Shown in pieces: positions 1 through 19,545 of a stretch of DNA of 64,000 nucleotides. Source of the stretch: an uncultured virus (IMG/VR IMGVR_UViG_3300030388_001635) (taxonomy: Duplodnaviria > Heunggongvirae > Uroviricota > Caudoviricetes > Crassvirales); the IMG/VR virus record IMGVR_UViG_3300030388_001635, one strand, 5' to 3'. The first letter of the stretch is position 1. The number at the start of each line of letters is the position of its first letter. A program made the translations under genes and the position numbers. A model generated the notes under the pieces. It had not been told where the DNA came from. It did no database searches and saw nothing but the letters and a program-made list of their open reading frames with translations.

Positions 1-2859
1 GTTTAATGTTAATGTTCCACTTGTTACGTTACCACCTGTTACAAAATTATTAGAACCTTCTGAAGTAACATAACCTGCACCATTTGTAAGTTGATTATTA
101 TTAGTAATAACAGGTACAGTACAATTTAATGTAACTGTTCCACTTGTACCACCACCACTCATTCCTGTTCCGGCAGTTACTCCTGTGATATCACCTACAC
201 TTGTTGTGTATCCTGCTCCGTTAGTAAGTTGATTATTGTTAGTTATTGTGTTAGAAATAGTAAGAGTACCACCGCTTGACGTAGAAGTTAATTCTGTTTG
301 TATACCTGCGCCTTGTGCAAAAGTAACAGTCTCTCCATTGGTTACATTACTTGTTTCTGTACCATTACCTTCTTTTAAAGTCCAAGAAGACATAGAGCCT
401 CCTGATGAAGTTACATATCCACTATCATTAGTCCATTGACTAATATTACCTCCCTTATTGGTGAAAGTCTGTGAGTTGGATGCAGTTGTTGTTCCCGTAT
501 TTGTTGTATAACCTGCTCCGTTAGTTAATTGATTATTATTAGTTATGGAGTTGTTAAATGTTACAGTTTCGTTAGAAGCTTGATTTAATGTAATAGTACC
601 ACCTCCCGAAAGTCCTGTTCCTGCAGTTAATGTTATAGTTGCATTATTAACTGTTGGTAAAGAGCCTGCTGTTATATATCCTGAGTTATTAGTCCATTGA
701 GAAATGTTACCTCCTTTATTAGTAAAGGTTTGTGAATTACTTGCATTAGTAAATCCTGTAGCAGTTAATGTACTTAATCCTTGTCTAGTTAATGTTAATG
801 TTCCTCCTGATTGGGATGCGCCTGTAACGTAATAATTATCATTATTATCATTAGGATTAAATGTAATAGTATCTGTAGCGTTATTTGTAGTAATAGACAT
901 TCCTCCTGTTGCTACAAAAGTCATTGTATCATTATTGCTATCTGCTACTACAGTATTTTGTCCACTTACAGCAAAGTTTTTATATATGGCTTGTGATGAG
1001 CCTTTGTCTGCGTTAGTTAAAGTTACAGCTCCACTTGTTCCACCACCTGACATACCACTTCCTGCAGATACCGCTGTAATATCTCCTACATTTGTAGTAT
1101 ATCCTGCTCCGTTAGTTAACTGATTGTTATTGGTTATTGTATTATTTAATGTTACGCTACCTGAAGTTCCTCCTCCACTTAGTCCTGTACCTGCTACAAC
1201 AGCTGTTATATCTCCTACACTTGTAGTATATCCTGAATCATTTGTCCATTGACTAATATTACCTCCCTTATTAGTGAAAGTTTGTGCGTTAGAAGCGGTA
1301 GTTGTTCCTGTATTTGTTGTGTATCCACTATTGTTACTCCATTGAGATATGTTATTACTAGCTAATCCTAAAGTAACACTTCCTGAAGTTCCTCCACCTG
1401 TTAATTTATTACCTGCTACAACAGCTGTTATATCTCCTTGAGGTATACTTGGGAATGCAACTATATCACCCTCCCCATTTATATAGTCTTCTGTATCTCC
1501 TTGAAAATTAATGACTAATGTTCCTGAGCCACTTACAGGTGTTCCTGTAATTTGCAAAGCATCTCCTTGAGCTGACAACGCAACACTCGTAACAGTTCCT
1601 GTGTTGTTCGTATAGCCTGCACCGTTAGTTAGCTGATTATTGTTAGTAATAGAGTTATTAAATGTTACAGTCTCGTTAGAGGCTTGATTTAATGTTATAA
1701 CTCCTCCTCCGGTTAAATTTGTTCCTGCTGTGAAAGTAATTGTAGCGTTGTTTACAGTTGGTAAAGAACCCGATGTTATGTACCCTGAGTCATTACTCCA
1801 TTGTGATATGTTACCACTCTTATTTGTAAATGTCTGTGAGTTACTAGCTGTAGTTGTTCCTACGTTAGTTGTATAACCCGCACCATTAGTTATTTGACTT
1901 GTGTTTATTGCAAAAGTAACATTACCTAAACCTTGTCTATTTAATGTAACAGTACCTGAAGTAACATTTCCACCTGTTACATAGTAATTATCATTATTAT
2001 CATTAGGATTAAACGTAATAGTATCAGTAGTATTATTAGTAGTAATACTCATACCCCCTGTTGCGACAAAAGTTAATGTATCATTGTTACTGTCAGCAAT
2101 TACTGTGTTTTGTCCACTAACAGCTACATTTTTAAATATAGCCTGAGAACTACCCTTATCTGAATTAGTAATGGTTACTGAACCTGACGTTCCCCCTCCT
2201 GAAATACCTGAACCTGCAACAACTGCAGTAATATCGCCCTGTGGTATAGAAGGAAAAGTTGTTAAATTACCTGCACCATTTATATATTGAGCTGAAGAGC
2301 CTGCCATTGTAATAGCAAGAGTTCCTGAACTTGTTATAGGTGAACCACCTACTGTAAATGCGTTACCACCATGTGTTTGAGACACAGATGTTACCCCTTC
2401 GCCTGATTGAGTAGCATTTATAGTAATAGTATCACCACTTCTCACAGTAGTAACATTACTACCACCTGCGATATCTATTGTATCATTATTACTATTAGCT
2501 GTTGCAGTACCACCTGAGTCAGCTGTAAAGTTTTTAAATATACTTTGTTGTGAACCTCTGTCCGTATTAGTTAAGTCAACTATAAAACCATTGGAGCTAG
2601 TTGACATACCTGTTCCACCTTGAATAGTTACTAAGCTATTTTGTATTACAGATGCTGATGTTCCACTATCTCCTGTTAATCTCCATGAAGACATTGTTCC
2701 TGCATCTATGTATCCTCTCAACTGTGAGCCGGTTACATAGTCTATTCTACCGTTACCATTAACAGTTAAGAACTTATCAGAGTCAGCAGAAGCATTTAAT
2801 AAACTGCCAATGGTGATACTCCCTGATGATGTAAGACTGTTTAAAAAATCTATTGCCAT
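1..2859 (-). CDS. Long repetitive tail/head fibre protein (partial; runs off the left edge; missing from the ORF track)
   Basis: ATG at 2859 (MAIDFLNSLTSSGSITIG...), open to position 1. G/T/S/N-rich with reiterated modules GDITAVVAGxGxSGGGTSGxVT, ITNNNQLTNGAGY and SNSQTFTNKGGNISQWTNDSGY. Confidence 0.85.
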   Translation of the reverse strand, partial: MAIDFLNSLTSSGSITIGSLLNASADSDKFLTVNGNGRIDYVTGSQLRGYIDAGTMSSWRLTGDSGTSASVIQNSLVTIQGGTGMSTSSNGFIVDLTNTDRGSQQSIFKNFTADSGGTATANSNNDTIDIAGGSNVTTVRSGDTITINATQSGEGVTSVSQTHGGNAFTVGGSPITSSGTLAITMAGSSAQYINGAGNLTTFPSIPQGDITAVVAGSGISGGGTSGSVTITNSDKGSSQAIFKNVAVSGQNTVIADSNNDTLTFVATGGMSITTNNTTDTITFNPNDNNDNYYVTGGNVTSGTVTLNRQGLGNVTFAINTSQITNGAGYTTNVGTTTASNSQTFTNKSGNISQWSNDSGYITSGSLPTVNNATITFTAGTNLTGGGVITLNQASNETVTFNNSITNNNQLTNGAGYTNNTGTVTSVALSAQGDALQITGTPVSGSGTLVINFQGDTEDYINGEGDIVAFPSIPQGDITAVVAGNKLTGGGTSGSVTLGLASNNISQWSNNSGYTTNTGTTTASNAQTFTNKGGNISQWTNDSGYTTSVGDITAVVAGTGLSGGGTSGSVTLNNTITNNNQLTNGAGYTTNVGDITAVSAGSGMSGGGTSGAVTLTNADKGSSQAIYKNFAVSGQNTVVADSNNDTMTFVATGGMSITTNNATDTITFNPNDNNDNYYVTGASQSGGTLTLTRQGLSTLTATGFTNASNSQTFTNKGGNISQWTNNSGYITAGSLPTVNNATITLTAGTGLSGGGTITLNQASNETVTFNNSITNNNQLTNGAGYTTNTGTTTASNSQTFTNKGGNISQWTNDSGYVTSSGGSMSSWTLKEGNGTETSNVTNGETVTFAQGAGIQTELTSTSSGGTLTISNTITNNNQLTNGAGYTTSVGDITGVTAGTGMSGGGTSGTVTLNCTVPVITNNNQLTNGAGYVTSEGSNNFVTGGNVTSGTLTLN

Positions 2860-2882
2860 AAAAAGGTGTTAAATTAAATTAT

Positions 2883-5243
2883 TTACGCCACCTTAGTCAC
2901 TAAGACTCTTACTGCATTGCTTGCTAATGCTGCTGAAGATAGTAGGGTTAAAGCGTTCGTACTTGTTCTTTGAACCTCTAAAGTTACAGTATCATAAGGT
3001 GCTGCATTATCATATGCTTGCACCATTACATCTCTTGTTCCGAAATTGTGTGATACTGTATAAGATACAGCTGAACCGTTTCCAATGTTCTGAGCATAAA
3101 ATGCACTTGAACCTATACATGCTTCAACAGCCGCACAGAAGTTTGTAACTTGTGATGAAGTAATTGCTATCGTTTGTGCTGCCATTGCAGTTACAAGACC
3201 TTTAGCATTTACTGTAGCACTTAAAGAGCTTGATGCACTTCCAAAGCTTCCAACATTACTGTTAACAGTTGCTAGTGTTAAACCTGAAGTTACATTAGCA
3301 GAACCGTCAAAGGTTACTCCCCATGTTCCATCTCCTGTAAGAGATATAGTTCTTGCAGTTGCTAATTTAGTAGCTGTAGCTGCATTACCCGTAATCTCAC
3401 CTTCAATGTTTGCTATTAAAGTTCCTACGTTTGCTATTGTAGCTGTAGTAGTTGGCTTAGTAGTAGCATTACCTAATCTAAACTTAGGAGATGCTGCTGT
3501 AGCTGATGAAGATGCATCATAAAATAAAGTAGGGAAATAATTAGTAGCTGATATTACATAGTTACCAAAGAATCCTATATCAACTGAATTAGCACCACCG
3601 CCTGCAACGTCATTGCCATTAGCGTACTCCATCATATTATCTTCGATGGATACTGTTGTACTATTTATAGTTGTTGTTGTTCCATTAACTGTTAAGTTAC
3701 CTGCGATAGTTACTGTTGAACCGTCATCAGTAACAGACGAGTTAGTTAACTGATTGCTAGTATTATCCCATTTCATTAATGCATTTGCACTTAATGCTGC
3801 GAAATTCTTAAGACTTAAACTTCCTGTAGTAGTTATTGTACCTCCTGTTAAACCACCTGTTGCAGGTGTTGCTACTGAAGTAACTGTACCGGAATTATTT
3901 GAGTATGGTAAATCGCCTACTAAATGTTTAGCAGCTATTGTACTTCCGTCTTCCATTGCTATTATAACAGAATCAACATCTAAAGCAGTACCTTCTGAAT
4001 CTGTAGCTTGGTCAATAAATCCTCCTGAAGCTGCATAATTTAAAGCAACAGTTCTAACGACAGCACCATCGTATGAGCCACTAAATGTTAATGAAGTATT
4101 TGTTGCTGTAAGAGTTTTTAAAGTTCCTCCTAAAGCAACACCACTAATAGTAGAGTTTGCTAGTCTGTCGTTTGCTATACCTCCTGCAGATATTCCAAAT
4201 GCTAGAGTTCCGTTTGTAGTTATTGGTGAACCTGTTACTGTTAATCCATTTGCTCCTGTTGCTGCTACTGATGTTACAGTACCACCTCCAATCGCTGATT
4301 GTAATTGAGATACATTAATAAATCCTGCATCGCCTGATGCTGAAGTATCTGATAAAAATAATCTGTCTGTTGATGCAACCGTTTTAGCTGTAAAGTCTGC
4401 ACTTGCAAGTATAACGTTATCTGCACCTAAGTAATCAACAGCTACACTAGGAGAAGGACCTGTACTGTTTGTTACTGTAATACCTGCGCCACCTAATACT
4501 GAAGTAACATCTCCTACCGAAATAGTTTGTAATGCACCTGTACCATCTATAAATTGAGATGTTGTACCTGAACCTGATACTGTAAATGTTCCGTTAGCTG
4601 TTATTGGTGAACCTGCTACTGAAAATGCTGCAGGCATTGCTAATGCAACACTTGTTACCGTACCTTCATCTCGGTCAGCTAATGTACCATCACCTAATAC
4701 AATTTGGTCACTCTCGCCATCCCATTCAAAAGCTAGTGTTCCTGTGGTCGTAACCGGAGTACTTGCCGCTGTAATTTTTAAAGCATCACCTGCTGTATAA
4801 CCTGTAATTGCTAAACCTACTGATGTTACAGTACCTCCGCCAATAGCTGCACTAAGTTGTGATAAGTTTACAAACTTAGCATCACTATCTGTTGCATCAG
4901 ATATTAATACTTTATCTGTAGTTGCTAATGATAAAGCTGTTCCATCCGCTGCAGCTAATATTACGTTATCTGCGCCTGCATAGTCTACTCTAACTGTAAC
5001 ATTTCCTGAAGTTCCGCCTCCATCTAAACCTGCGCCTGCAGTAACTCCTGAGATATCTCCTGAGCCATCTAAAGAAACCCAAGCTGTACCTGTATTGTAA
5101 TTAAAAGTGCTTGTTGTTGTGTTAAAGATAAACTGACCTGCGTAAGAAACTCCTTGTGCCGGGTTAGCAGCAAGGTTCTGTGCTGACACATTTTGTATCT
5201 CGTTTGTAGTTAAGTCTATGTTGTTTAAAAATCTAATTGCCAT
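2883..5243 (-). CDS. Fibre/spike structural protein (786 aa)
   Basis: Repeated GTVTSV / GDVTSV modules; GNLTVNGTTTTINSTT beta-helix-like segment; C-terminal VSHNFGTRDVMVQAYD domain typical of fibre proteins. Confidence 0.75.
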   Translation of the reverse strand: MAIRFLNNIDLTTNEIQNVSAQNLAANPAQGVSYAGQFIFNTTTSTFNYNTGTAWVSLDGSGDISGVTAGAGLDGGGTSGNVTVRVDYAGADNVILAAADGTALSLATTDKVLISDATDSDAKFVNLSQLSAAIGGGTVTSVGLAITGYTAGDALKITAASTPVTTTGTLAFEWDGESDQIVLGDGTLADRDEGTVTSVALAMPAAFSVAGSPITANGTFTVSGSGTTSQFIDGTGALQTISVGDVTSVLGGAGITVTNSTGPSPSVAVDYLGADNVILASADFTAKTVASTDRLFLSDTSASGDAGFINVSQLQSAIGGGTVTSVAATGANGLTVTGSPITTNGTLAFGISAGGIANDRLANSTISGVALGGTLKTLTATNTSLTFSGSYDGAVVRTVALNYAASGGFIDQATDSEGTALDVDSVIIAMEDGSTIAAKHLVGDLPYSNNSGTVTSVATPATGGLTGGTITTTGSLSLKNFAALSANALMKWDNTSNQLTNSSVTDDGSTVTIAGNLTVNGTTTTINSTTVSIEDNMMEYANGNDVAGGGANSVDIGFFGNYVISATNYFPTLFYDASSSATAASPKFRLGNATTKPTTTATIANVGTLIANIEGEITGNAATATKLATARTISLTGDGTWGVTFDGSANVTSGLTLATVNSNVGSFGSASSSLSATVNAKGLVTAMAAQTIAITSSQVTNFCAAVEACIGSSAFYAQNIGNGSAVSYTVSHNFGTRDVMVQAYDNAAPYDTVTLEVQRTSTNALTLLSSAALASNAVRVLVTKVA

Positions 5244-11727: not shown

Positions 11728-11953
11728 GAATAGAACAAGTCATTCCTTCAAGGACCATTTGATATCCTGCTCTTTTATCGTAATAAATTATATCATCTTT
11801 TTTAATAGAACTAACCTCAGTACCGGGAGTTATAACTTTAGCCTTTGCATATCTAAATTGTTCCGCATCATGTTCTGATAATAAAAGTCCTGATGAGGTT
11901 TTCATTTCTTCTTTAATATCCTCTGCTATTATGTATTTATTAATTGCTATCAT
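11696..11953 (-). CDS. groES: Co-chaperonin GroES (Cpn10)
   Basis: KTSSGLLL mobile loop, AKVITPG, IKKDDIIYY and ILKENDVVVV; overlaps the end of groEL. Confidence 0.85.
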   Translation of the reverse strand: MIAINKYIIAEDIKEEMKTSSGLLLSEHDAEQFRYAKAKVITPGTEVSSIKKDDIIYYDKRAGYQMVLEGMTCSILKENDVVVVV

Positions 11954-13568
11954 TAGACTCGTATGTTCTTGCCATTGTTATAATAGCGTTAGTAGATAAA
12001 ATAGTAACTGCAACGGATACCGCATTTTGTAATGCGTTCTTTGTAACCTTCATAGGGTCTATAATCCCCATGTCAATCATATCACCGTATGTCTCATTCT
12101 TTACATCGTAACCAACTCCATCCGCTTTTGATTCTTGATAGTGTTGTGAGATTGTACTCCCTGCATTCTCTAAAATTTGTGAGAGAGGCGAATACAATGA
12201 GTTGTATAAAATTGCGTCAGCAATTTTTTTTGAAGGACTTACCGGAGTATTGTATATTGGTTTAAAGTTTTGTACTATATCATATAGAGCAACTCCACCT
12301 CCCGGTAGTATTCCTTCTAACATAGCTGAACGAACTGCGCAAACAGCATCATCAACTCTATCAAACAATTCTTTTTGTTCAATATCTGTTTGTCCTCCTA
12401 CATATATAACGCCTATCCCTCCGCTTAAAGAAGCGATACGAGATAATATAAATTCTTTATCTGATTTATTAGTTGCAATTTCATGTGCATCCCATAGCTG
12501 AGTAACCCTCTCGCTTACATCAACGCCATCTTTAGAAGACTTAATAAGTATACTAGATTCTTTTCCTATAATACATTTATCTGCATGACCTAAATCATCA
12601 AATGAAATTAAGGATAAATCGTCACCTGTTTTTTCTGAAAAGTATTTTGCTCCAACCGACACAGCTATGTCTTGCATAAGCTCATGTTGTTTGTATCCAA
12701 ACTGTGGAGGTCCTATAACACAAATCTGTAAACCATTCTTCACAACATTAGCAGCTAAAGTGTTTACTACGTTAACCGACATAGGAGCAATGATTAATAA
12801 TTTTTTTTGTTCGTTGATTATTGGTTTTAGAATATTTTCAATTGCTAAGACATTAGATATCTCAGAATCACTTACTAATACCTCAACATTGTCAAGTATA
12901 CACTCGTCTTTCTTTTGGTTATTAATAAACAAAGGAGATGTCCATCCTCTTTCTATCTTAACACCATTTGTTGTTTCGCTGTATGTTTTACTAGACTCAG
13001 ATTTTTCTACAGTAACGATACCGTTCTTACCTACTTCTTTATATGTATCCGCAATAACCTTACCTATAACCTTGTCATTGTTTGCAGAAATAATAGCTAC
13101 GTCAAGTAATCTTTTATTGGTAATTTTTTTAGAAGCTTTTTTTAATTTACTTATTACTATCTCAGTTTCGCTAACAACTTCTTTAAGAACCTCTGCTCTG
13201 TTTGTAGTATCATCCATTAGCGTATCGCCTTGCTTAACTAATGCTTCTGTTAATACTATTGCTGTTGTTGTACCGTCTCCTGCTGAGGTAGCTGTGTTGT
13301 CCGCAGCTTGCTTCATCATGCGTACTGCAAGATTTTCTACAGGGTCAACTAAATCTACAGCTTTAGCTACGGTTACACCGTCCTTAGTAACTGTAAGTCC
13401 ACCCGTAACATATGCAGATTCTATTAGTACTGTATTACCTCTCGGTCCTAATGTACTTTTAACTGCGTTAGCGATTTTTGTAATTCCGGAGATTAATTTA
13501 TTTCTCCCCGTTTCCCCAAAAGATAAGTCCTTCGGATTGAAGCCTGATGGCATTTGCATTTGATTCAT
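11940..13568 (-). CDS. groEL: Group I chaperonin GroEL (phage-encoded)
   Basis: VKSTLGPRG, VTKDGVTVA, AGDGTTTA, EGILPGGG and GIIDPMKVT; no C-terminal GGM tail. Confidence 0.97.
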   Translation of the reverse strand: MNQMQMPSGFNPKDLSFGETGRNKLISGITKIANAVKSTLGPRGNTVLIESAYVTGGLTVTKDGVTVAKAVDLVDPVENLAVRMMKQAADNTATSAGDGTTTAIVLTEALVKQGDTLMDDTTNRAEVLKEVVSETEIVISKLKKASKKITNKRLLDVAIISANNDKVIGKVIADTYKEVGKNGIVTVEKSESSKTYSETTNGVKIERGWTSPLFINNQKKDECILDNVEVLVSDSEISNVLAIENILKPIINEQKKLLIIAPMSVNVVNTLAANVVKNGLQICVIGPPQFGYKQHELMQDIAVSVGAKYFSEKTGDDLSLISFDDLGHADKCIIGKESSILIKSSKDGVDVSERVTQLWDAHEIATNKSDKEFILSRIASLSGGIGVIYVGGQTDIEQKELFDRVDDAVCAVRSAMLEGILPGGGVALYDIVQNFKPIYNTPVSPSKKIADAILYNSLYSPLSQILENAGSTISQHYQESKADGVGYDVKNETYGDMIDMGIIDPMKVTKNALQNAVSVAVTILSTNAIITMARTYESNDSN

Positions 13569-13590
13569 AGTGTATTGGATTTAATTTATA

Positions 13591-13598
13591 CAAAGGTA
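13591..13598 (-). promoter_or_regulatory. Bacteroidota -7 element (TACCTTTG) for groEL-groES
   Basis: CAAAGGTA on the top strand, 22 nt upstream of the groEL ATG. Confidence 0.6.
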
Positions 13599-13705
13599 AT
13601 AAAACTAATTGGAATTGAGAAACTGTGTTAATTATTTATGTTCCTTACTCTCTCTCTCTCTTTTACTGTGGACTACTTTTTTATTTTGAATTTGTTTTTG
13701 GTTTC

Positions 13706-13787
13706 AAATCAACATTTCAACATTATATTTTATAGTAGATTGATTATTAATTAATTACAATTTTTAAAATCAACACAAAATCAACAT
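13706..13787. repeat. CAACA iteron-like block A (AT-rich intergenic)
   Basis: AAATCAACATTTCAACA ... AAATCAACACAAAATCAACAT; the same layout recurs at 22991-23062. Confidence 0.6.
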
Positions 13788-13807
13788 GTTAATGTTAAGT
13801 ATGTAGC

Positions 13808-13841
13808 AAAAAAAAAGAGGACTAACTAAAGTCCCCTCTTT
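13808..13841 (-). terminator. Intrinsic terminator
   Basis: AAAGAGG/CCTCTTT stem with an A-run (U-tract on minus), downstream of ORF 13867-14088. Confidence 0.6.
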
Positions 13842-13866
13842 CCCAATCAACACACATTTCTTTTTG

Positions 13867-14088
13867 CTAATATCCGAATACATTTCTGCCATCCATTCTC
13901 ATCTTAGCTCTTTCAATACCGTCTGCAATACAATCTATTTTATATTGTTTTTTCATTTGCTGTCTATACATAGCTGCTTGAGCAATTCCTGTTTGACTAT
14001 CTTGTCTGTCATTAATTTCCCTACCGTTTTTTATATACAGTCCTTCCATTACGTTTGACTTCTTTGGGTCTTTCTTTAATTGTTTCAT
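13867..14088 (-). CDS. Hypothetical protein (73 aa)
   Basis: ORF track; A-rich start context; followed by a terminator. Confidence 0.65.
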   Translation of the reverse strand: MKQLKKDPKKSNVMEGLYIKNGREINDRQDSQTGIAQAAMYRQQMKKQYKIDCIADGIERAKMRMDGRNVFGY

Positions 14089-14552
14089 GACTTTTATTTT
14101 TTGCTAAGTTACAAATTTTTTTGAGATATGTGTAGTGTTTATGTTCCCCCCCATAATGCGACTGATGGCTGAGAAATGAAAACACTTTTTTTTTAATAGG
14201 GGGGGTAGTTATTCTATTAATCCCTATCAGATTTTTTTCAAAATTCGCTGCTGCCTAGCTCCCTAGTCTTACCTCCTGCTCTAAGCTACAGCTCTGTCTA
14301 TTGTACGCATTCACTCCTCTGTCATGACATGCTCTTGCCCTGCATATCCTCATCATTATCTCTATACTGAATATATAATTCTATTAAATGACCTAGACAT
14401 TTAAGAGAGCCTATCCTCCATGTGTAATCTAGGTAAATATATCGTAGGGAAATCTTCATGCATAACTTCCTCAGCCTCAACAACTTACAATGTAAGAAAT
14501 ACAAGCAATAAAAAATAATACCAAAAACATTAGTTATTGTCATAAGTTAGAC

Positions 14553-14560
14553 TATCTTTG
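14553..14560 (+). promoter_or_regulatory. Early promoter -7 element (TATCTTTG)
   Basis: Matches TAnnTTTG, 32 nt upstream of the first plus-strand gene. Confidence 0.7.
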
Positions 14561-14592
14561 AACCATATTAATTAATTAAAAAATAACACATT

Positions 14593-15540
14593 ATGAGAAA
14601 ATTTACAAAAATCAATCCTTATCAGAAGATTAATCAGATAGTCATAGACGGGCTACAGAAATCAGGTTTACAATGGTTCAAAGCATGGACAAATGCTAAA
14701 GGTGATATAGAACATCCAATCAATAGAAATAGCAAGCGAGCATACTCAGGTGTTAATGTATTCTTTTTAAATGCATCATGTGTGCAGGCAGGTTATAAAT
14801 CTAATGAATGGTTAACTTATGTCGGAGCTAAGAAATTAGGAGGTTCAGTAAGAAGAGGAGAGAAATCAACTTGTGTAGTTAGACAGCTGATATCCTTTAA
14901 GATAGATGGGAAATGGTACTTAGAAGCACAAATTCCCGCAGGCAGAACAAAGAAAGATGCTACTCAACTAGCATTTAATATAGCGACAAACAATGTCTTC
15001 AATGTAGACCAAATTGATGGAGTTGAAGCATGCAGAGAAATCATAGAAGGAGCTACAGAAGACAACTTAGATGTTAAACCAATTGATACATGTGAGAAGA
15101 TAATTTCTGACTATGTGTTATCATCTAATGTAAAAATTAGAGAGGTAAATTCAAATGAAGCATTCTACTCACCTAATAGAGACATGATACAAATGCCGAC
15201 AAAAAAACAATTTGCTGAGAAGACATCAGTTGATGATTATTACAAGACATTGTTTCATGAGATGCTACATTCAACAGGACATGAGTCTAGACTAAACAGA
15301 TTCAAAAACGATGGTAATCAAGAGGATAAGGTTTCTTATTCAAAAGAAGAGCTTGTTGCTGAGATTGGAGCTATGTATCTTGTATCGATTGCTAAGATAA
15401 ATCCACAAGACAATGAGAGAAATTCACAAGCCTATATCAACGGATGGATTAAACACATCAAGACAAGCCATGAGAAATCACTTGTATCAGCAATGACCCA
15501 AGCTCAGAAAGGTGTTAAACTTATCTTGACAAATAGTTAA
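14593..15540 (+). CDS. ardC: ArdC-like antirestriction/ssDNA-binding protein with zincin-like domain
   Basis: PINRNSKRAYSGVN, WLTY..AKKLGGSVRRGEKS, VFNVDQ, AFYSP..D.IQMP, HEMLHSTGHESRLNR and YSKEELVAEIGA. Confidence 0.92.
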   Translation: MRKFTKINPYQKINQIVIDGLQKSGLQWFKAWTNAKGDIEHPINRNSKRAYSGVNVFFLNASCVQAGYKSNEWLTYVGAKKLGGSVRRGEKSTCVVRQLISFKIDGKWYLEAQIPAGRTKKDATQLAFNIATNNVFNVDQIDGVEACREIIEGATEDNLDVKPIDTCEKIISDYVLSSNVKIREVNSNEAFYSPNRDMIQMPTKKQFAEKTSVDDYYKTLFHEMLHSTGHESRLNRFKNDGNQEDKVSYSKEELVAEIGAMYLVSIAKINPQDNERNSQAYINGWIKHIKTSHEKSLVSAMTQAQKGVKLILTNS

Positions 15541-15589
15541 CTGACGATTCCTGAAGGATGAAACGTCTCCTGTCGGAGACGTATTAACT
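15535..15589 (+). ncRNA. Type I hammerhead ribozyme HH1 (predicted cleavage after GUA, 15583)
   Basis: Stem I AGTTAA/TTAACT; core CTGACGA; stem II TCC-TGAA-GGA; GAAA; stem III CGTCTCC-TGTC-GGAGACG; then TA. Confidence 0.92.
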
Positions 15590-15615
15590 TAATAAAAATT
15601 AAAACACAAAACATT

Positions 15616-15957
15616 ATGAAAACTTTACAAGATTTATTTACAATTCAAGGAATAGCAACTAAGGAGTCAATGGAAGGAAGAGCATTAAGAACTAGCGAAA
15701 CAGCTAGTTACTCAGGGAACACATGGTTCTTTACTTTCTCAGGTCATGTCAATTCAATGAGCTGTGATTATTATCCTCTTGGATGGAAAAAACAGGAAGA
15801 CGATAGAGGAAAGCCAACTGCTTCTAACTCAAATGCGATAGTATATTCTATGGATGTTTATCTTACTGATGCAGGCATTCAATTGATGTATTGGTTCATC
15901 TATAAGCATTTAACTCCATCAGGACAGGGAGATGCAATTGTAGGACCAACTAGTTAA
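15616..15957 (+). CDS. Early hypothetical protein (113 aa), bounded by HH1 and HH2
   Basis: ORF track; its stop TAA lies within HH2 stem I. Confidence 0.8.
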   Translation: MKTLQDLFTIQGIATKESMEGRALRTSETASYSGNTWFFTFSGHVNSMSCDYYPLGWKKQEDDRGKPTASNSNAIVYSMDVYLTDAGIQLMYWFIYKHLTPSGQGDAIVGPTS

Positions 15958-16006
15958 CTGACGATTCGGTAACGATGAAACGTCTCCTGACGGAGACGTA
16001 TTAACT
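15952..16006 (+). ncRNA. Type I hammerhead ribozyme HH2 (predicted cleavage after 16000)
   Basis: AGTTAA CTGACGA T-TCG-GTAA-CGA-T GAAA CGTCTCC-TGAC-GGAGACG TA TTAACT; compensatory C-G to G-C change in stem II. Confidence 0.92.
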
Positions 16007-16023
16007 TAATTAAAAATAATATT

Positions 16024-16389
16024 ATGAATTCACATACAATGAAAGACCTAAAAAATAACGATGCAAAACCAATCATGGTACTAAATGTTTTAACTGAAGA
16101 GTACCAAGTATTTATGAATGGTTATGACCTAGAAACCAATCTTGTCTCAGCTATCATTTTTGCAACAGGAGACAGCAAGAAAATTTTAGATGATGACTAC
16201 AGAAATAAGATTAAAAAAGAAGCAAGGATAGAATACATGGTTACTAAGCTTGGAGCAAAGAAAGTTTACTCTCCTGAATTCGACATGATATCTTACTATC
16301 AAGTACAACATGAATTCTTCAAAGATGAGTCTATCAAAAAGCTACAACAACTTTCAAGCACAGCTACACATGATTATCTAAATAGTTAA
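16024..16389 (+). CDS. Early hypothetical protein (121 aa), bounded by HH2 and HH3
   Basis: ORF track; its stop TAA lies within HH3 stem I. Confidence 0.8.
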   Translation: MNSHTMKDLKNNDAKPIMVLNVLTEEYQVFMNGYDLETNLVSAIIFATGDSKKILDDDYRNKIKKEARIEYMVTKLGAKKVYSPEFDMISYYQVQHEFFKDESIKKLQQLSSTATHDYLNS

Positions 16390-16438
16390 CTGACGATTCC
16401 ACAAGGATGAAACGTCTCCTGTCGGAGACGTATTAACT
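16384..16438 (+). ncRNA. Type I hammerhead ribozyme HH3 (predicted cleavage after 16432)
   Basis: AGTTAA CTGACGA T-TCC-ACAA-GGA-T GAAA CGTCTCC-TGTC-GGAGACG TA TTAACT. Confidence 0.92.
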
Positions 16439-16458
16439 TAAAATTAAAATAACACATT

Positions 16459-16713
16459 ATGAAAAAAAGTAAAATTTATTTAGAAGCAACAGCAAGTTTT
16501 GTTGCAACAGCTTTTGTCAGCATTCTTGCAGTCAAAGTTATGTTCCATGTCTTTATTGATATAGACGGAATTGGAGATTGGATGCTATGGATATTCATGC
16601 TAGGTTTTAATCTATTCTTGATAGTCATTGTAGCTAATCTATTTTATGTTCATTACAATGAAGAGCTTACATCATTAAGGCGTAGAGATAATGATACAAC
16701 AACAAATTTATAA
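16459..16713 (+). CDS. Early membrane protein (2 TM helices)
   Basis: Two long hydrophobic segments; AAAATAACACATTATG start context. Confidence 0.75.
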   Translation: MKKSKIYLEATASFVATAFVSILAVKVMFHVFIDIDGIGDWMLWIFMLGFNLFLIVIVANLFYVHYNEELTSLRRRDNDTTTNL

Positions 16714-16715
16714 AC

Positions 16716-17135
16716 ATGGAAAAGAAAATAACAAAATTCGGAAAAGACTATTGGTCAGAAACAGGAGCTTACAGTAAAGAAGCTAAGGCATTAATAGATG
16801 ACCTAGTACCAAATATGGGAAGGGCTAAAACCAATCATGGTGAGCTACTGAGATGTATCACTAATCTTATCTATGAGCATGGAAACAATGGCAATGGTAA
16901 TACCTTTGGTCAATGGGACAAGCTTGAGAGTCATTGGGAAAAACAACTTGAGTACTTGATTCAAAACATGGATGATACCATCTCTGCGAAAGGATTAAAA
17001 GCTTTTGTTTCATCACTTAACAGAGACGAACATCTTAAGAAGTATAATCATAGATACTCTATGGTTATGGATAGTATAATGCATCAAATAATCACAACAG
17101 AAGACAGGCAAGTTACATTGTTCGATAGTGAATAG
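16716..17135 (+). CDS. Early hypothetical protein (139 aa)
   Basis: ORF track; LVP..G...T.HGELLR....L.YE..NNGNGN motif. Confidence 0.8.
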   Translation: MEKKITKFGKDYWSETGAYSKEAKALIDDLVPNMGRAKTNHGELLRCITNLIYEHGNNGNGNTFGQWDKLESHWEKQLEYLIQNMDDTISAKGLKAFVSSLNRDEHLKKYNHRYSMVMDSIMHQIITTEDRQVTLFDSE

Positions 17136-17154
17136 TGTATGACAGGACCAATTC

Positions 17155-17185
17155 TTGTCTAATTCAAATATTATTATTATATTTG
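17155..17185 (+). promoter_or_regulatory. Bacteroidota sigma-A promoter (TTG-N20-TATATTTG)
   Basis: TTG at 17155-17157 and TATATTTG at 17178-17185. Confidence 0.75.
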
Positions 17186-17198
17186 TAATATCAATAAG

Positions 17199-17225
17199 GA
17201 TTCCTGAGCATGAATCAAACTGCTC
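17199..17225 (+). ncRNA. Compact H-type pseudoknot
   Basis: GATTC (17199-203) pairs with GAATC (17212-216); loop GAGCA (17206-210) pairs with TGCTC (17221-225). Confidence 0.6.
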
Positions 17226-17277
17226 GCTGTAACAGAATATATTGTTCTGTCTGACGATTCCAAAAGGATGAAACAGC
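17226..17277 (+). ncRNA. Type III hammerhead ribozyme HH4 (predicted cleavage after GUA, 17231)
   Basis: GCTGT-A, stem I hairpin ACAGAATA-TAT-TGTTCTGT, CTGACGA, T-TCC-AAAA-GGA-T, GAA-ACAGC; stem III GCTGT/ACAGC is the open stem. Confidence 0.9.
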
Positions 17278-17294
17278 AAATTAAAAATAACATT

Positions 17295-17696
17295 ATGAAC
17301 ACACATGAATCAACTTTAAAAAAAACAAACCTGTGGGTAATCTTAGATGAAGAGAAGCTTTCGATAGTTAAGGGGAATGGACAGGCAATGAAGTTTAAAA
17401 CTGAGGAAGAGGCAGATAGATTCGCTAGCTCACACCTCCACCTTTGGATAGTAGTTAACATTAATTTCTTAGACAAATGGTGGAAGCATGAAGCAAGCCA
17501 TGACAAAGAGGGAAGATTATATGGACCATCAAAATATGATTTACCGATAGAGTTGGATGACCCTGAATTTACACCTCCATCTATTGAAGATACTTTAGAG
17601 TTAGTAGAAGAACAAGAGATGGAAGTTGGAAACGTAAAAGAATGGATAAGTGACGATGAGAGAGCTAAACGTAATCCTAATAAATTTAAAAAATAA
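17295..17696 (+). CDS. Early hypothetical protein (start revised to MNTHES...)
   Basis: The track start at 17268 lies inside HH4; the ATG at 17295 has the AAAAATAACATTATG context shared by its neighbours. Confidence 0.7.
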   Translation: MNTHESTLKKTNLWVILDEEKLSIVKGNGQAMKFKTEEEADRFASSHLHLWIVVNINFLDKWWKHEASHDKEGRLYGPSKYDLPIELDDPEFTPPSIEDTLELVEEQEMEVGNVKEWISDDERAKRNPNKFKK

Positions 17697-17706
17697 AACT
17701 TAATAA

Positions 17707-18222
17707 ATGAAAACAGAACAAATATATATAATTAATTATGTTGATAATTATGGTAATTCAGAGATAATGGGAGCTACTAATAATCCAAAAAAATGGATTA
17801 AAAAACGTAATGAAATCAGAGAGGATGAATATAAAGAAAAATTATCTGATTTTAAAATTACTAGGATTACGTTTAGTCCATTTAATTTTGATGAACTTCA
17901 TGCATTTGGATTACTAGGTACTCATAAAAAAGATAATGCATTTAAAGAATTATTTAAATTGTATGAATCTGTATCGGATGGAGCTGAAAAGTTAGAAGGC
18001 GAAAACGCCATGTTAACTAACCGAGTTGAGATGTATGAATTAAAGGTCGCTAAACTTAGACGTACAATAAGTACTACGATGAATAGCATAGAGATACCTA
18101 AGTGCTATGCAGAGGAAGGAGATGATACGTTTTATGACTATGAATTAATGCAAGAGCTATTTGACCAAGCAATGTGCGAGCTGAAAAACAAAGTCGCTAG
18201 ACTAACTAAAACAATTAAATAA
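17707..18222 (+). CDS. Hypothetical protein (171 aa)
   Basis: ORF track; tightly packed operon. Confidence 0.7.
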   Translation: MKTEQIYIINYVDNYGNSEIMGATNNPKKWIKKRNEIREDEYKEKLSDFKITRITFSPFNFDELHAFGLLGTHKKDNAFKELFKLYESVSDGAEKLEGENAMLTNRVEMYELKVAKLRRTISTTMNSIEIPKCYAEEGDDTFYDYELMQELFDQAMCELKNKVARLTKTIK

Positions 18223-18223
18223 A

Positions 18224-18562
18224 ATGGAAAACATAGATTTTATACAGATAATAAATGACCTTCGTAACTTACGAGACCAAACGCCATGTGATAAAGATTC
18301 ACATGGGCATTGTGGATGTGAACAGTTTGACGTCATCATTGATAAGCTTGATGAAAAGCAAACGCTAATGCACATGCATCATGAACATGTAGCCCTAATG
18401 AGTGGAATGAACTCAATGATTCTTAAAATTTCTTTCCTCATAGATATGGTAGAAGACAAAAAACATTCAGAAGATGATACATCTGAACACTACCTTTCTG
18501 ACGGAGAGACATTAGATATAGTAATTGATAAACTAAAATTAATAATAAATAAAAATAAATAA
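18224..18562 (+). CDS. Hypothetical protein (112 aa)
   Basis: ORF track; tightly packed operon. Confidence 0.7.
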   Translation: MENIDFIQIINDLRNLRDQTPCDKDSHGHCGCEQFDVIIDKLDEKQTLMHMHHEHVALMSGMNSMILKISFLIDMVEDKKHSEDDTSEHYLSDGETLDIVIDKLKLIINKNK

Positions 18563-18563
18563 T

Positions 18564-18746
18564 ATGGACGTAAAAGAATTAATTCAGAAATTAAAAAACC
18601 TTCCACAAGATTTACCTATTAGGATTATAAATATAGAAGAAGATTCTAATTTTATAAATGAATGGGTATATGAATTAGAGTGTTCAAAGACAGGGGAATC
18701 AGGTTTTGAACATTGTGGAGAAGTTAGATTACTAACCACAGAGTAA
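18564..18746 (+). CDS. Hypothetical protein (60 aa; MxVKELIxKLxxLPQD family)
   Basis: N-terminal motif common in small phage proteins. Confidence 0.7.
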   Translation: MDVKELIQKLKNLPQDLPIRIINIEEDSNFINEWVYELECSKTGESGFEHCGEVRLLTTE

Positions 18747-18747
18747 A

Positions 18748-18788
18748 GGATAGCATGGTGCAAGGGAAGTTCGATTCTTCCCTATCCA
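18748..18788 (+). ncRNA. tRNA-top-half-like element (acceptor-like stem plus T-arm, no anticodon arm)
   Basis: GGATAG/CTATCC outer stem stacked on GGAAG-TTCGATT-CTTCC; intergenic. Confidence 0.55.
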
Positions 18789-18820
18789 CGACATAAGTCA
18801 CATAAATAAAATTAAATAAA

Positions 18821-19093
18821 ATGGTAAAAGTAAAAATTAGTTTAAGACAAGTGTATTTCAAAACAACATCAGTTGAGATTGATATACCAAAAGACATCAC
18901 AACTTGGTACAGCGACATAGGTACTTATCTTAATGAAAATCCTGAGCTTTATGCAGACAAGGTTATGAAGAATTTAAAAGAGGAAGATTATGAAGAAGGC
19001 ATCGGTATGGAAACGGGAGCTTGGACAGATTCAGACATGGATGCAGAATGGCGTTTTGATTGCAAAGAACTAAAAACAGGAGGTCATGTCTAA
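18821..19093 (+). CDS. Hypothetical protein (90 aa)
   Basis: ORF track. Confidence 0.7.
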   Translation: MVKVKISLRQVYFKTTSVEIDIPKDITTWYSDIGTYLNENPELYADKVMKNLKEEDYEEGIGMETGAWTDSDMDAEWRFDCKELKTGGHV

Positions 19094-19322
19094 GCAATCT
19101 TTAAGTGAGTACCTAATCCAACAAGTGAAAGAGGTTAGGGAGATGAATGAGATACAGAAACGAGGTCTCATTGAAATGGAGGATTGGTTTAGAATTAGCA
19201 ATAGAACTGAAATAGATTCTAAACTAACTGAACTAATTCCGGAATATCGTAAGCCTAAAAGACATAAAAACGACATGACCAAGTATAAACTTAGCGAGTA
19301 TTATGTTAAGAGAAAATTGTAA
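19086..19322 (+). CDS. Hypothetical protein (78 aa)
   Basis: ORF track; overlaps the upstream stop. Confidence 0.6.
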   Translation: MSKQSLSEYLIQQVKEVREMNEIQKRGLIEMEDWFRISNRTEIDSKLTELIPEYRKPKRHKNDMTKYKLSEYYVKRKL

Positions 19323-19362
19323 TTGTCATTTGTTTTATCTAAATTTACACTAAACTTAAACT

Positions 19363-19545
19363 ATGTACATGAAAGAAATATTTAGATTGTATGAAAAATA
19401 CAAGAAAGAAACCAAGCATCTTAGTAAATTGTTGCAAGAAAAAGGATTGCAAACAAAAGAACCTGTCAAGAAAAATTGGGCAGAAATAGAAAAAAAATTA
19501 ATAGACGGGCATTGGTGGGTAAAATCCTCTGATGCATTAAAATAA
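19363..19545 (+). CDS. Hypothetical protein (60 aa)
   Basis: ORF track; possible variant promoter TTG-N20-TAAATTTA at 19317-19347. Confidence 0.6.
   Translation: MYMKEIFRLYEKYKKETKHLSKLLQEKGLQTKEPVKKNWAEIEKKLIDGHWWVKSSDALK

What the first reader, a model, noticed from the sequence alone, without database searches (positions are those of the whole stretch)
15535..16438. Array of three type I hammerhead ribozymes punctuating the first early genes
Seen: a 55-nt element occurs three times (15535-15589, 15952-16006, 16384-16438), each exactly at a gene junction. Each folds as a complete hammerhead: stem I AGUUAA/UUAACU, CUGACGA core, stem II, GAAA, a 7-bp stem III and a GUA cleavage triplet. Differences between copies are confined to loops plus one compensatory pair in stem II (UCC/GGA vs UCG/CGA), which is what selection on RNA structure would produce. 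In all three, the upstream ORF ends in AGT-TAA inside stem I, so the ribozyme supplies the stop codon. Known: hammerheads cleave after NUH, leaving a 5'-OH and a 2',3'-cyclic phosphate, and some occur in phages. Inference: the early transcript starting near 14560 cuts itself, without protein, into gene-sized mRNAs beginning with ardC. This would be analogous to RNase III processing of the T7 early region. A terminating ribosome sitting on stem I could couple translation to cleavage.
Basis: partly seen in the sequence, partly recalled or inferred. Interest (0 to 1): 0.93.

Follow-up and report, generated by a model that had tools for sequence, protein, structure and literature searches.

The report
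Four hammerhead ribozymes between phage genes
A marine phage carries four small self-cutting RNA motifs (hammerhead ribozymes) between its first genes, a convincing example of an arrangement already described in other phages rather than a new kind of element.

Summary
The 55-nt element stands at 15535-15589, 15952-16006 and 16384-16438 (+). Each copy has the full hammerhead core, three stems and a GUA cleavage triplet in type I order. Each upstream ORF, the first being ardC, ends at a TAA inside stem I.

It has the same core and stem II but is circularly permuted to type III.

All four copies carry a U10.1-U11.1 mismatch instead of the usual G-C pair. Among 95 viral-contig matches to the core plus stem II, only G-C (67) or U-U (28) occurs at that position. 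Of 82 non-redundant matches, 78 have stems I and III, against 7 of 4100 with shuffled flanks. A structure-guided alignment of 36 type I relatives is 99.6% paired, with two-sided changes in 14 of 17 pairs.

Rfam models match only below their gathering scores.

Self-cleavage was not tested, and the RNA data found were too sparse to judge.

Perreault et al. 2011 already described clustered hammerheads flanking single phage genes (including ardA), their cleavage in vitro, and natural U-U variants. This is therefore a new member of a known kind. It has three minor new features: mixed topologies in one array, stop codons in all three frames at the 5' edge, and hammerheads at the borders of homology blocks between related phages.

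The parts
14553..14560 (+). Possible -7 promoter motif TATCTTTG (a Bacteroidota-type TAnnTTTG; the consensus is recalled) in the divergent intergenic region, 33 nt upstream of the ardC ATG
   Evidence: The motif is not enriched in the window (98 matches against 105 expected), so support is weak. The ORFs just upstream lie on the - strand, so + strand transcription must start in this gap. L150 keeps 77% identity over 14553-14618.
14593..15540 (+). ardC-like anti-restriction gene (315 aa). Its TAA stop at 15538-15540 lies in the stem I 5' strand of HH1.
   Evidence: Pfam ArdcN E 7.8e-21 and MPTase-PolyVal E 3.3e-29; phrog_7245 anti-restriction protein, E 1.6e-63. ORF.
15535..15589 (+). Hammerhead 1, type I. 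Stem I AGUUAA/UUAACU, core CUGACGA, stem II U-U plus UCC/GGA with loop UGAA, GAAA, 8-bp stem III, GUA. Predicted cut between 15583 and 15584.
   Evidence: the MFE is the hammerhead fold, -15.1 kcal/mol; 88.0 bits with model R1, which was built from these copies. Best Rfam match is RAGATH-1-hammerhead at 19 bits, below its gathering score.
15616..15957 (+). ORF of 113 aa with no known family. Its stop TAA at 15955-15957 lies in stem I of HH2.
   Evidence: No Pfam or PHROG family. No tblastn match in the phage collection.
15952..16006 (+). Hammerhead 2, type I. Stem II UCG/CGA with loop GUAA (a compensatory swap relative to copies 1 and 3). Predicted cut between 16000 and 16001.
   Evidence: The hammerhead fold is 2.5 kcal/mol above an alternative MFE fold.
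16024..16389 (+). ORF of 121 aa with no known family. Its stop TAA at 16387-16389 lies in stem I of HH3.
16384..16438 (+). Hammerhead 3, type I, loop II ACAA. Predicted cut between 16432 and 16433.
   Evidence: (the MFE is the hammerhead fold, -15.6 kcal/mol).
16459..17135 (+). Two adjacent ORFs (16459-16713, 84 aa; 16716-17135, 139 aa) with no ribozyme between them
   Evidence: One search gives only a sub-threshold DUF6899 match for the second ORF. The 16688-17338 region is 84% identical to L150.
17178..17185 (+). Possible -7 promoter motif TATATTTG in the 159-nt intergenic gap upstream of the type III hammerhead
   Evidence: Weak: the motif is not enriched. Inference only.
17226..17277 (+). 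Stem III GCUGU/ACAGC is open-ended, GUA, stem I is a hairpin ACAGAAUA-UAU-UGUUCUGU, and the core CUGACGA plus stem II (UUCC AAAA GGAU) is the same as in the type I copies. Predicted cut between 17231 and 17232.
   Evidence: (the MFE is the hammerhead fold, -13.5 kcal/mol). Rfam Hammerhead_3 full-length alignment at 30.1 bits, E 3.4e-05 in a 101-nt search, below the gathering score of 48.5.
17295..17696 (+). ORF of 133 aa. The likely start is ATG 17295, in the same AACAUUAUG context as the other genes. The ORF list starts it at an ATG inside the ribozyme (17268).

Best explanation
The region holds an array of four hammerhead self-cleaving ribozymes on the + strand: three type I and one type III. 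All four are the natural U10.1-U11.1 variant with a GUA cleavage triplet. They sit in the first + strand gene block of a marine phage whose relatives infect Flavobacteriia.

Most likely mechanism (inferred, not shown):
- One transcript starts in the divergent gap upstream of ardC.
- It cuts itself after A15583, A16000 and A16432, giving single-gene mRNAs for ardC, the 113-aa ORF and the 121-aa ORF.
- The type III copy cuts after A17231 and separates or trims the leader of the next block.

Each cut lies about 44 nt 3' of the upstream stop codon, so the upstream mRNA keeps its stop. Its 3' end is the stem III hairpin carrying a 2',3'-cyclic phosphate. The downstream mRNA starts with a 5'-OH and a short, unstructured, A/U-rich leader of 23-32 nt.

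The 5' edge of each type I copy reads UAG-U-UAA-C-UGA, which gives a stop codon in all three frames. Any upstream ORF therefore ends at the ribozyme.
For: Shown:
- All conserved hammerhead positions (C3 U4 G5 A6 G8 A9, G12 A13 A14, A15.1-U16.1, H17=A) are present in all four copies.
- The same 24-nt core plus stem II module occurs in two topologies within one array. This is hard to explain except by a hammerhead.
- The hammerhead fold is the MFE of 3 of 4 copies.
- Rfam Hammerhead_3 aligns the type III copy end to end (30.1 bits).
- In IMG/VR, 31 of 32 matches to the U-U core pattern have stems I and III: 30 type III, 1 type I, 1 none.
- Of 95 matches with positions 10.1 and 11.1 left free, 67 are G-C, 28 are U-U and none is any other combination.
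- Of 82 non-redundant matches, 78 have both unspecified stems, against 7 of 4100 with shuffled flanks.
- A model-guided alignment of 36 type I sequences is 99.6% paired over 560 cells, 14 of 17 pairs have two-sided changes, 0 of 500 shuffles reach this, and slid controls give 29-46% paired.
- Related marine contigs carry arrays of 1 to 4 such ribozymes, with stem III covarying.
- In L036, a 40%-identical ardC is also followed directly by a type I hammerhead, with its stop in stem I.
- No terminator-like site lies at the elements.
- No TAnnTTTG motif lies on the + strand between 14561 and 16900, which fits co-transcription.

From the literature:
- Clustered hammerheads flank single genes in prophages, including a triple array around ardA.
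- About 2-kb fragments with tandem hammerheads from three species cleaved in vitro, and the A. tumefaciens array also cleaved in vivo.
- Natural U10.1-U11.1 variants exist, and U-U is the most active mispair.
(PMC3088659, passages and section 8.)
Against: - No cleavage was observed. The RNA runs found hold only a few low-depth contigs.
- Rfam gives no match at gathering score for the whole window. It gives no hammerhead match at E up to 10 in a 2.1-kb search. The type I copy reaches only 19 bits (E 0.24) against RAGATH-1-hammerhead in a 96-nt search.
- G10.1-C11.1, the most conserved stem pair, is replaced by U-U. G10.1 is recalled to take part in a metal site, so activity may be lower or may depend differently on ions.
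- Stem I is only 6 bp, five of them A-U. No bulge or loop is evident for the stem I/loop II tertiary contact that gives fast cleavage at physiological Mg2+.
- In +/-40-nt context, other folds are 4-8 kcal/mol more stable than the bare hammerhead secondary structure, and for copy 2 this is so even in isolation.
- The three type I copies are 88-89% identical. Their conservation within the window could reflect recent duplication.
- The promoter assignment rests on a motif that is not enriched.
Confidence: 0.78

Rival explanations
1. The elements are mainly recombination joints, that is, portable cassette borders. The conserved ~50-nt sequence, its three-frame stop and the following leader let co-infecting phages swap early (anti-defence) genes. 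Ribozyme activity would then be secondary, weak or lost.
For: - In L143, L145, L149 and L150, similarity to the window's early region is confined to the hammerheads and 10-25 nt of leader. The genes between them do not match by blastn or tblastx.
- Homology blocks between relatives begin or end at the hammerheads. L143 450-662 matches L145 2496-2710 and stops 17 nt after the ribozyme. L143 593-684 matches L145 2025-2113 and starts at its 5' edge. L145 1435-2095 matches L149 1924-2562 and ends 18 nt after it.
- The stem I sequence RGUUAA/UUAACY is kept while stem III varies.
- The sequence TAG-T-TAA-C-TGA closes all three frames.
Against: - Sequence conservation for recombination does not explain strict retention of every catalytic nucleotide, compensatory changes in stems II and III, or the restriction of 10.1/11.1 to G-C or U-U.
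- The two roles are compatible, so this is an added role rather than an exclusive rival.
- Only four related contigs were compared.
Confidence: 0.25
2. The ribozymes are conditional rather than constitutive. Cleavage would be gated by translation of the upstream ORF, because a terminating ribosome on the stop codon in stem I unfolds stem I and the core. Alternatively it would be gated by ion conditions, because of the U-U pair at the 10.1 position.
For: - The stop codon lies in the 5' strand of stem I in all three window copies. It also does so in relatives, which use either the TAA or the overlapping TAG frame, and in L036.
- Stem I is weak and competes with other folds.
- Perreault et al. 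suggest that slower phage variants may become active under particular conditions (PMC3088659, discussion passage).
Against: No data bear on kinetics. Placing the stop in stem I may simply reflect gene packing or the three-frame stop. U-U is reported as the best-tolerated mispair.
Confidence: 0.2
3. The repeats are not ribozymes but hairpin signals: intrinsic terminators or attenuators, RNase III sites, or protein-binding sites that merely resemble a hammerhead.
For: Each type I copy contains a stable G+C-rich 8-bp hairpin (stem III) at a gene end. Rfam models do not reach threshold.
Against: - No terminator-like site was called at any copy, and the hairpins are not followed by a T run.
- The hairpin sequence is the part that varies among relatives, while the single-stranded core is invariant. 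This is the reverse of what a hairpin signal predicts.
- The type III copy has no such hairpin but keeps the core.
Confidence: 0.03

Closest known systems
Clustered hammerhead ribozymes flanking genes in prophages (Perreault et al. 2011, PMC3088659; passages and section 8 read, supplements not seen)
   Same: Several hammerheads lie within a few kb on one strand and flank single genes or short blocks in phage DNA. One published triple array flanks the anti-restriction gene ardA, and here the first gene is ardC. The same functional proposal was made there: cutting long phage transcripts into gene-length mRNAs. Mixed types (I, II, III) are drawn in their Figure 3 legend.
   Different: Here the host range is marine and Flavobacteriia-like, all four copies are the U10.1-U11.1 variant with GUA, and type I and type III copies share an identical core plus stem II module. 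The upstream stop codon, as part of a three-frame stop, is built into stem I. Cleavage of these copies is untested.
Natural U10.1-U11.1 hammerhead variants (Perreault et al. 2011, section 8 and Figure 5 legend)
   Same: Stem II opens with a U-U mismatch in place of G10.1-C11.1. The paper reports this as a natural variant and as the mispair best tolerated in earlier mutagenesis.
   Different: The paper's search rules rejected hits with a 10.1-11.1 mispair unless activity was measured. This may be why the variant scores low with Rfam. Here it is the only form in the array and is common in viral contigs (28 of 95 matches). I could not see their supplementary alignment to check whether these sequences are already listed.
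Rfam Hammerhead_3 (RF00008), RAGATH-1-hammerhead (RF03152) and Hammerhead_1 (RF00163; this accession is recalled)
   Same: Full-length alignments to the consensus core and stems were obtained: the type III copy to RF00008 (30.1 bits) and a type I copy to RF03152 (19 bits).
   Different: All scores are below the gathering thresholds (48.5 and 56.3). No match to the type I model was listed at E up to 10. Even the canonical G-C type I hammerhead after ardC in L036 reaches only 36.2 bits, so the models are insensitive to these short phage forms.
HHphage of haloviruses HF1/HF2 (Perreault et al. 2011, discussion passage)
   Same: A hammerhead lies just upstream of the start codon of an early gene in a polycistronic phage transcript, and a mapped 5' end falls near the cleavage site.
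   Different: It is a single ribozyme, an archaeal virus and a different structural variant that needs high salt.
RNase III processing of the phage T7 early transcript (recalled, not tested here)
   Same: A polycistronic early transcript is cut between genes into stable single-gene mRNAs.
   Different: That mechanism uses a host protein enzyme on long hairpins. Here the RNA would cut itself, leaving 5'-OH and cyclic phosphate ends.

Membership tests
Hammerhead ribozyme | Three helices around a junction, in the order stem I 5' strand, CUGANGA, stem II hairpin, GAAA, stem III, cleavage site, stem I 3' strand (type I), or the type III permutation of this order | tested here: met
   The descriptor scan finds 3 type I sites and 1 type III site on the + strand, 0 on the - strand, and a mean of 0.01 in 100 shuffles. 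The MFE folds of copies 1, 3 and 4 are the three-way junction.
Hammerhead ribozyme | Invariant core nucleotides C3 U4 G5 A6 G8 A9 and G12 A13 A14 | tested here: met
   All four copies read CUGACGA ... GAAA. These columns are invariant across the relatives in alignment A1.
Hammerhead ribozyme | An A15.1-U16.1 pair and a cleavage-site nucleotide 17 that is not G | tested here: met
   A-U and GUA in all four copies. A15.1-U16.1 is present in 36 of 36 aligned type I sequences.
Hammerhead ribozyme | A G10.1-C11.1 pair closing stem II (quasi-conserved, not strictly defining) | tested here: not met
   All four copies have U-U. This is a documented natural and active exception (PMC3088659 section 8). 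Among 95 viral matches, only G-C (67) and U-U (28) occur.
Hammerhead ribozyme | Stems supported by compensatory change among relatives | tested here: met
   99.6% of 560 cells are paired, 14 of 17 pairs have changes on both sides, and 0 of 500 shuffles reach this. The alignment was fitted to the model. The independent check is 78 of 82 non-redundant core matches with both stems, against 7 of 4100 with shuffled flanks.
Hammerhead ribozyme | A tertiary contact between stem I and loop II, needed for fast cleavage at low Mg2+ | tested here: inconclusive
   The type I copies have a 6-bp stem I with no bulge or loop. Loop II reads NNAA in all four copies, and a UAA follows stem I in nearly all of the U-U type I relatives. 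No contact can be assigned from sequence.
Hammerhead ribozyme | Site-specific self-cleavage giving 5'-OH and 2',3'-cyclic phosphate ends | not testable with these tools
   Only sparse RNA contigs were available. This needs in vitro transcription or end-specific RNA-seq.
Hammerhead ribozyme | A match to an Rfam hammerhead covariance model at its gathering score (an operational criterion) | tested here: not met
   0 matches at gathering score. The best scores are 30.1 bits against 48.5 for the type III copy and 19 bits against 56.3 for a type I copy.
Clustered phage hammerheads (Perreault 2011) | Two or more hammerheads within a few kb on the same strand, flanking single genes or short gene blocks in phage DNA | tested here: met
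   Four sites lie within 1.75 kb and flank one or two ORFs each. The phage context is shown by ArdC and a phage-type GroEL.
Intrinsic terminator | A G+C-rich hairpin followed directly by a run of U | tested here: not met
   No terminator-like site was called at any of the four elements. The only hit in 13500-19500 is on the - strand at 18306.

The most novel reading that the evidence does not exclude
The hammerheads are the punctuation of a cassette system for early, probably anti-defence, genes in marine Flavobacteriia phages. Each unit would be ribozyme, three-frame stop (UAG-U-UAA-C-UGA), then an A/U-rich leader without a Shine-Dalgarno sequence. The unit would insulate each gene's mRNA by self-cleavage and would also supply the conserved ~50-nt homology through which co-infecting phages exchange genes. 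Ribozyme topology would be chosen by context. Type I leaves the ribozyme body as a protective 3' hairpin on the upstream mRNA. Type III follows a separate hairpin and stays on the downstream RNA.
Probability: 0.25. Interest if true: 0.6.

Novelty: new member of a known kind. Interest (0 to 1): 0.4.

Why it matters
The biological role of the many hammerheads found in phage and prophage DNA is still described as unsettled (review PMC6765202, passage read).

This array is compact and clean. Four ribozymes in two topologies lie in 1.75 kb, beginning with a recognisable anti-restriction gene. Near-identical DNA recurs in marine metagenomes of several studies.

If a host can be grown, the processing hypothesis could be tested directly on this region. 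So could the effect of the U10.1-U11.1 pair, and the idea that ribozymes mark exchangeable gene cassettes.

For annotation, it also shows that Rfam's hammerhead models miss this common phage variant at their gathering scores.

Tried and rejected
- Rfam at gathering score: nothing on the whole window or on 17 related loci. In E-value mode on 15400-17500 there was no hammerhead hit, only chance matches.
- blastn of 14400-17700 against GenBank phages: no match.
- The window's own assembly is not held. The nearest record, G001, is a 35-kb fragment. It holds only the core-like string that matches window 46434-46458 (-), which has no stem II and which I take as chance.
- RNA evidence: three RNA runs hold 5-7% of the sampled words. 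When laid, they give 6 short contigs at depth 2-23 inside ardC, inside the 113-aa ORF and at 17251-17432 (a relative with 12 differences). Contigs cannot show ends, and DNA carry-over is possible. The DNA-run contigs break at the repeats for assembly reasons. No verdict on expression or cleavage.
- The nearest GenBank phage by GroEL (MW202828.1, 58% identity) has no hammerhead in 15.6 kb around groEL.
- The TAnnTTTG motif is not enriched (98 matches against 105 expected), so it cannot by itself locate promoters.
- The sigma-70 scan is at chance level (32 against 28.3).
- The 113-aa and 121-aa ORFs have no Pfam, PHROG or phage tblastn match.
- The MAFFT alignment A1 misaligned stem III, so I replaced it with a model-guided alignment.
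- A first model-guided alignment, A3, with 50 matches at E up to 0.01, also pulled in type III elements through the shared core. I did not use it for the pair counts.
- A literature search for 'U10.1' found no paper using that term. The variant is nevertheless described in PMC3088659 section 8.
- PMC7151607 concerns A6C and is not relevant. PMC5737381 does not mention RAGATH-1 in its main text.
- Type II topology was not scanned with my descriptor.
Full report
**Observation**

The sequence and the repeat finder show three direct copies of a 73-nt repeat at 15530-15602, 15947-16019 and 16379-16451. They are 88-89% identical, with spacings of 417 and 432 nt.

Aligned, the three elements differ at five columns only. 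Two lie in loop II and one in the loop of stem III. The other two are the two sides of one stem II pair (C-G in copies 1 and 3, G-C in copy 2).

The ORFs 14593-15540, 15616-15957 and 16024-16389 each end with the TAA at positions 4-6 of the element, which is the 5' strand of stem I. The first ORF is ArdC-like: Pfam ArdcN E 7.8e-21 and MPTase-PolyVal E 3.3e-29, and PHROG anti-restriction protein E 1.6e-63.

**A fourth copy**

The repeat finder also reported a fourth copy of the 24-nt core plus stem II segment at 17251-17274. Read in context, it is a hammerhead in the type III arrangement:
- an open stem III (GCUGU/ACAGC);
- GUA, then a stem I hairpin;
- the same CUGACGA and stem II (UUCC AAAA GGAU);
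- GAAA.

Its minimum-energy fold is the three-way junction. Rfam Hammerhead_3 aligns it from end to end at 30.1 bits (E 3.4e-05 in a 101-nt search), below the gathering score of 48.5.

My descriptor requires the core, a stem II of at least 3 pairs opened by a pair or by U-U, GAAA, stems I and III of at least 4 pairs, U16.1 and a non-G at position 17. It finds exactly these four sites on the + strand, none on the - strand, and a mean of 0.01 per shuffled window. A fifth core-like string at 46434-46458 (-) has no stem II and lies in what looks like coding sequence. I take it as chance.

A covariance model built from the three copies and run over the whole window without filters finds the three copies (87-88 bits) and the type III copy through its core (24.8 bits). 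The next match scores 16.3 bits at E 0.13.

**Are they hammerheads?**

Every position that defines the class is present in all four copies: C3 U4 G5 A6 (C7) G8 A9, G12 A13 A14, A15.1-U16.1 and A17.

The exception is the closing pair of stem II, which is U10.1-U11.1 instead of G-C. To learn whether this is tolerated in nature, I scanned IMG/VR with the core plus stem II only, leaving stems I and III unspecified.

With U-U fixed, 32 loci matched. Of these, 30 are type III hammerheads, 1 is type I (L023) and 1 has no stems (L025).

With 10.1 and 11.1 left free, 95 loci matched. 67 have G-C, 28 have U-U, and none has any of the other 14 combinations. Of 82 non-redundant matches, 78 have both stems with U16.1 and H17. 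Only 7 of 4100 pass when the flanks are shuffled. Pair types at each stem position vary widely.

Using model R1, I aligned 36 type I sequences (3 from the window, 33 from 26 loci, E up to 1e-4). 99.6% of 560 cells are paired, 14 of 17 pairs show changes on both sides, 0 of 500 shuffles reach the observed values, and slid controls give 29-46% paired. That alignment is fitted to the model. Stem II was partly fixed by my search pattern, so only stems I and III count as independent.

Together with the occurrence of one catalytic module in two topologies in one array, I regard class membership as secure on sequence and structure.

**What counts against**

- Rfam reports nothing at gathering score.
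- It reports no hammerhead at E up to 10 in a 2.1-kb search.
- In a 96-nt search, the best match of a type I copy is RAGATH-1-hammerhead at 19 bits, E 0.24.
- The same models also miss the related type III elements at gathering score: 0 hits in 17 loci, and 26.5 bits for L001.
- They give only 36.2 bits to a canonical G-C type I hammerhead in L036. The failure therefore reflects model sensitivity as much as the U-U pair.
- Stem I of the type I copies is 6 bp, five of them A-U. It has no bulge or loop that could make the usual contact with loop II.
- For copy 2, an alternative fold is 2.5 kcal/mol better. With 40-nt flanks, alternative folds are 4-8 kcal/mol better than the bare hammerhead secondary structure for all three copies. 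Nearest-neighbour energies ignore the tertiary core.

**Cleavage was not observed**

The stretch is nearly identical (0.97-0.98 of sampled words) in 17 of 24 listed runs, labelled seawater, marine, sponge or invertebrate metagenomes. Fourteen of them are flagged as possible sources. The three not flagged come from two studies.

Three RNA runs hold 5-7% of the words. Laid on the stretch, they give only short low-depth contigs, which is no verdict.

**Context and relatives**

The ORFs just upstream of 14593 are on the - strand, so + strand transcription must begin in the 14544-14592 gap. A TATCTTTG at 14553 and a TATATTTG at 17178 fit the Bacteroidota -7 consensus as I recall it. The motif is not enriched in the window, however (98 matches against 105 expected).

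No such motif lies on the + strand between 14561 and 16900, and no terminator-like site lies at the elements. Both points fit one transcript through the three type I copies.

The genes lack Shine-Dalgarno sequences and share an AACA(C)AUUAUG start context.

The 542-aa ORF on the - strand (11940-13568) is a phage GroEL. Its relatives in GenBank are mostly Vibrio (78 records) and Flavobacterium (73) phages, with 9 Cellulophaga; the best hit is an uncultured Caudoviricetes record (58%), followed by Flavobacterium phages (37%).

One metagenome scan found L141, which is the same sequence as the window, and these related contigs with arrays:
- L143: 2 type I.
- L145: 4 type I, two with U-U and two with G-C.
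- L149: 1 type I.
- L150: 2 type I and 2 type III.

In these relatives stem I stays RGUUAA/UUAACY, N7 is C or U, and stem III changes freely (ACGC/GCGU, ACUCUGA/UCAGAGU, ACCGC/GCGGU).

In L036, an ArdC of 40% identity is followed at once by a type I hammerhead, with the ardC stop inside stem I.

**Two features I did not find described in what I read**

First, the 5' edge of the type I copies reads TAG-T-TAA-C-TGA (15534-15544 and its equivalents). This gives stops in all three frames. Relatives use either the TAA or the TAG frame for the upstream ORF.

Second, similarity between the window and L143, L145, L149 and L150 in this region is confined to the ribozymes and their leaders. Homology blocks among the relatives begin or end at the ribozymes. 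This suggests that the ribozymes also act as joints for gene exchange. It rests on four contigs only.

**Mechanism (inferred)**

- Self-cleavage after A17 would leave each upstream mRNA with its stop codon intact and with stem III as a 3' hairpin bearing a cyclic phosphate.
- Each downstream mRNA would start with a 5'-OH and a 23-32-nt A/U-rich leader.
- The type III copy would leave its body on the downstream RNA.
- A ribosome terminating at the stop in stem I would cover stem I and the core. Translation and folding may therefore compete. This is speculation.

**Comparison with what is known**

Perreault et al. 2011 (PMC3088659; passages, section 8; supplements not seen) report the following:
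- Multiple hammerheads are arranged to flank single genes or short blocks in prophages.
- The authors propose processing of long phage transcripts into operon-length or single-gene-length mRNAs.
- About 2-kb fragments with tandem hammerheads from three species cleaved in vitro.
- One triple array flanks ardA, and it was active in vivo.
- Natural U10.1-U11.1 variants exist, and U-U is the most active mispair in earlier mutagenesis.
- Their search rules rejected 10.1-11.1 mispairs unless activity was measured.

A 2019 review still calls the role of bacterial and phage hammerheads unsettled (PMC6765202, passage).

**Verdict**

This is a real and well-supported hammerhead array, with four members rather than three. 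It is a new member of a known kind. It has minor new features and some value as a test system. Interest 0.4.

Noticed in passing
window 11940-13568 (-): A 542-aa ORF is a phage-encoded GroEL chaperonin. tblastn finds 224 phage records; the commonest organism names are Vibrio (78) and Flavobacterium (73) phages, with 9 Cellulophaga. The best match is 58% identity, to an uncultured Caudoviricetes record where a GroES-like gene follows.
   Followed up: partly
window 15534-15544, 15951-15961, 16383-16393 (+): The 5' edge of each type I hammerhead reads TAG-T-TAA-C-TGA, giving a stop codon in each of the three frames. In related contigs the upstream ORF uses either the TAG or the TAA frame.
   Followed up: partly
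L143, L145, L149, L150 against each other and the window: Homology blocks between related marine phage contigs begin or end at the hammerheads or within about 18 nt after them. The genes between the ribozymes are unrelated. This suggests gene-cassette exchange at the ribozymes.
   Followed up: partly
L145 (oriented 2029-3518): One array of four type I hammerheads mixes two U10.1-U11.1/GUA copies with two G10.1-C11.1/GUC copies. Across viral contigs, U-U goes with A17 (22 of 22 type III) and G-C mostly with C17 (47 of 55). The exceptions are L023 and L149, which combine U-U with GUC.
   Followed up: no
related loci L001-L032, L140-L150: Of 49 non-redundant type III hammerheads, 29 have a strong hairpin directly abutting their 5' side, with an MFE within the lowest 5% of local 40-nt controls. 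This hairpin would become the 3' end of the upstream cleavage product. The window's own type III copy has only a weak 5-bp hairpin there (GAGCA...UGCUC, 17207-17226). That hairpin appears as AAGCA...UGCUU in L009, a compensatory change.
   Followed up: partly
window 17665-17691 and 17850-17876: A 27-nt inverted repeat, 93% complementary with 158 nt between the arms, spans the end of the 133-aa ORF and the start of the next ORF. Its function is unknown.
   Followed up: no
window 46434-46458 (-), also G001:C1:13553-13577: A string fits CTGANGA-N-GAAAC but has no stem II. It lies in apparent coding sequence and is conserved in the nearest record, so I take it as a chance match.
   Followed up: partly
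window 14500-17700 in DNA run X15: Contigs of a marine DNA run match the window up to 15981/15982 inside hammerhead 2. They then continue with a different stem III before rejoining the stem I sequence. This shows co-occurring relatives with covarying stem III (table 7).
   Followed up: no
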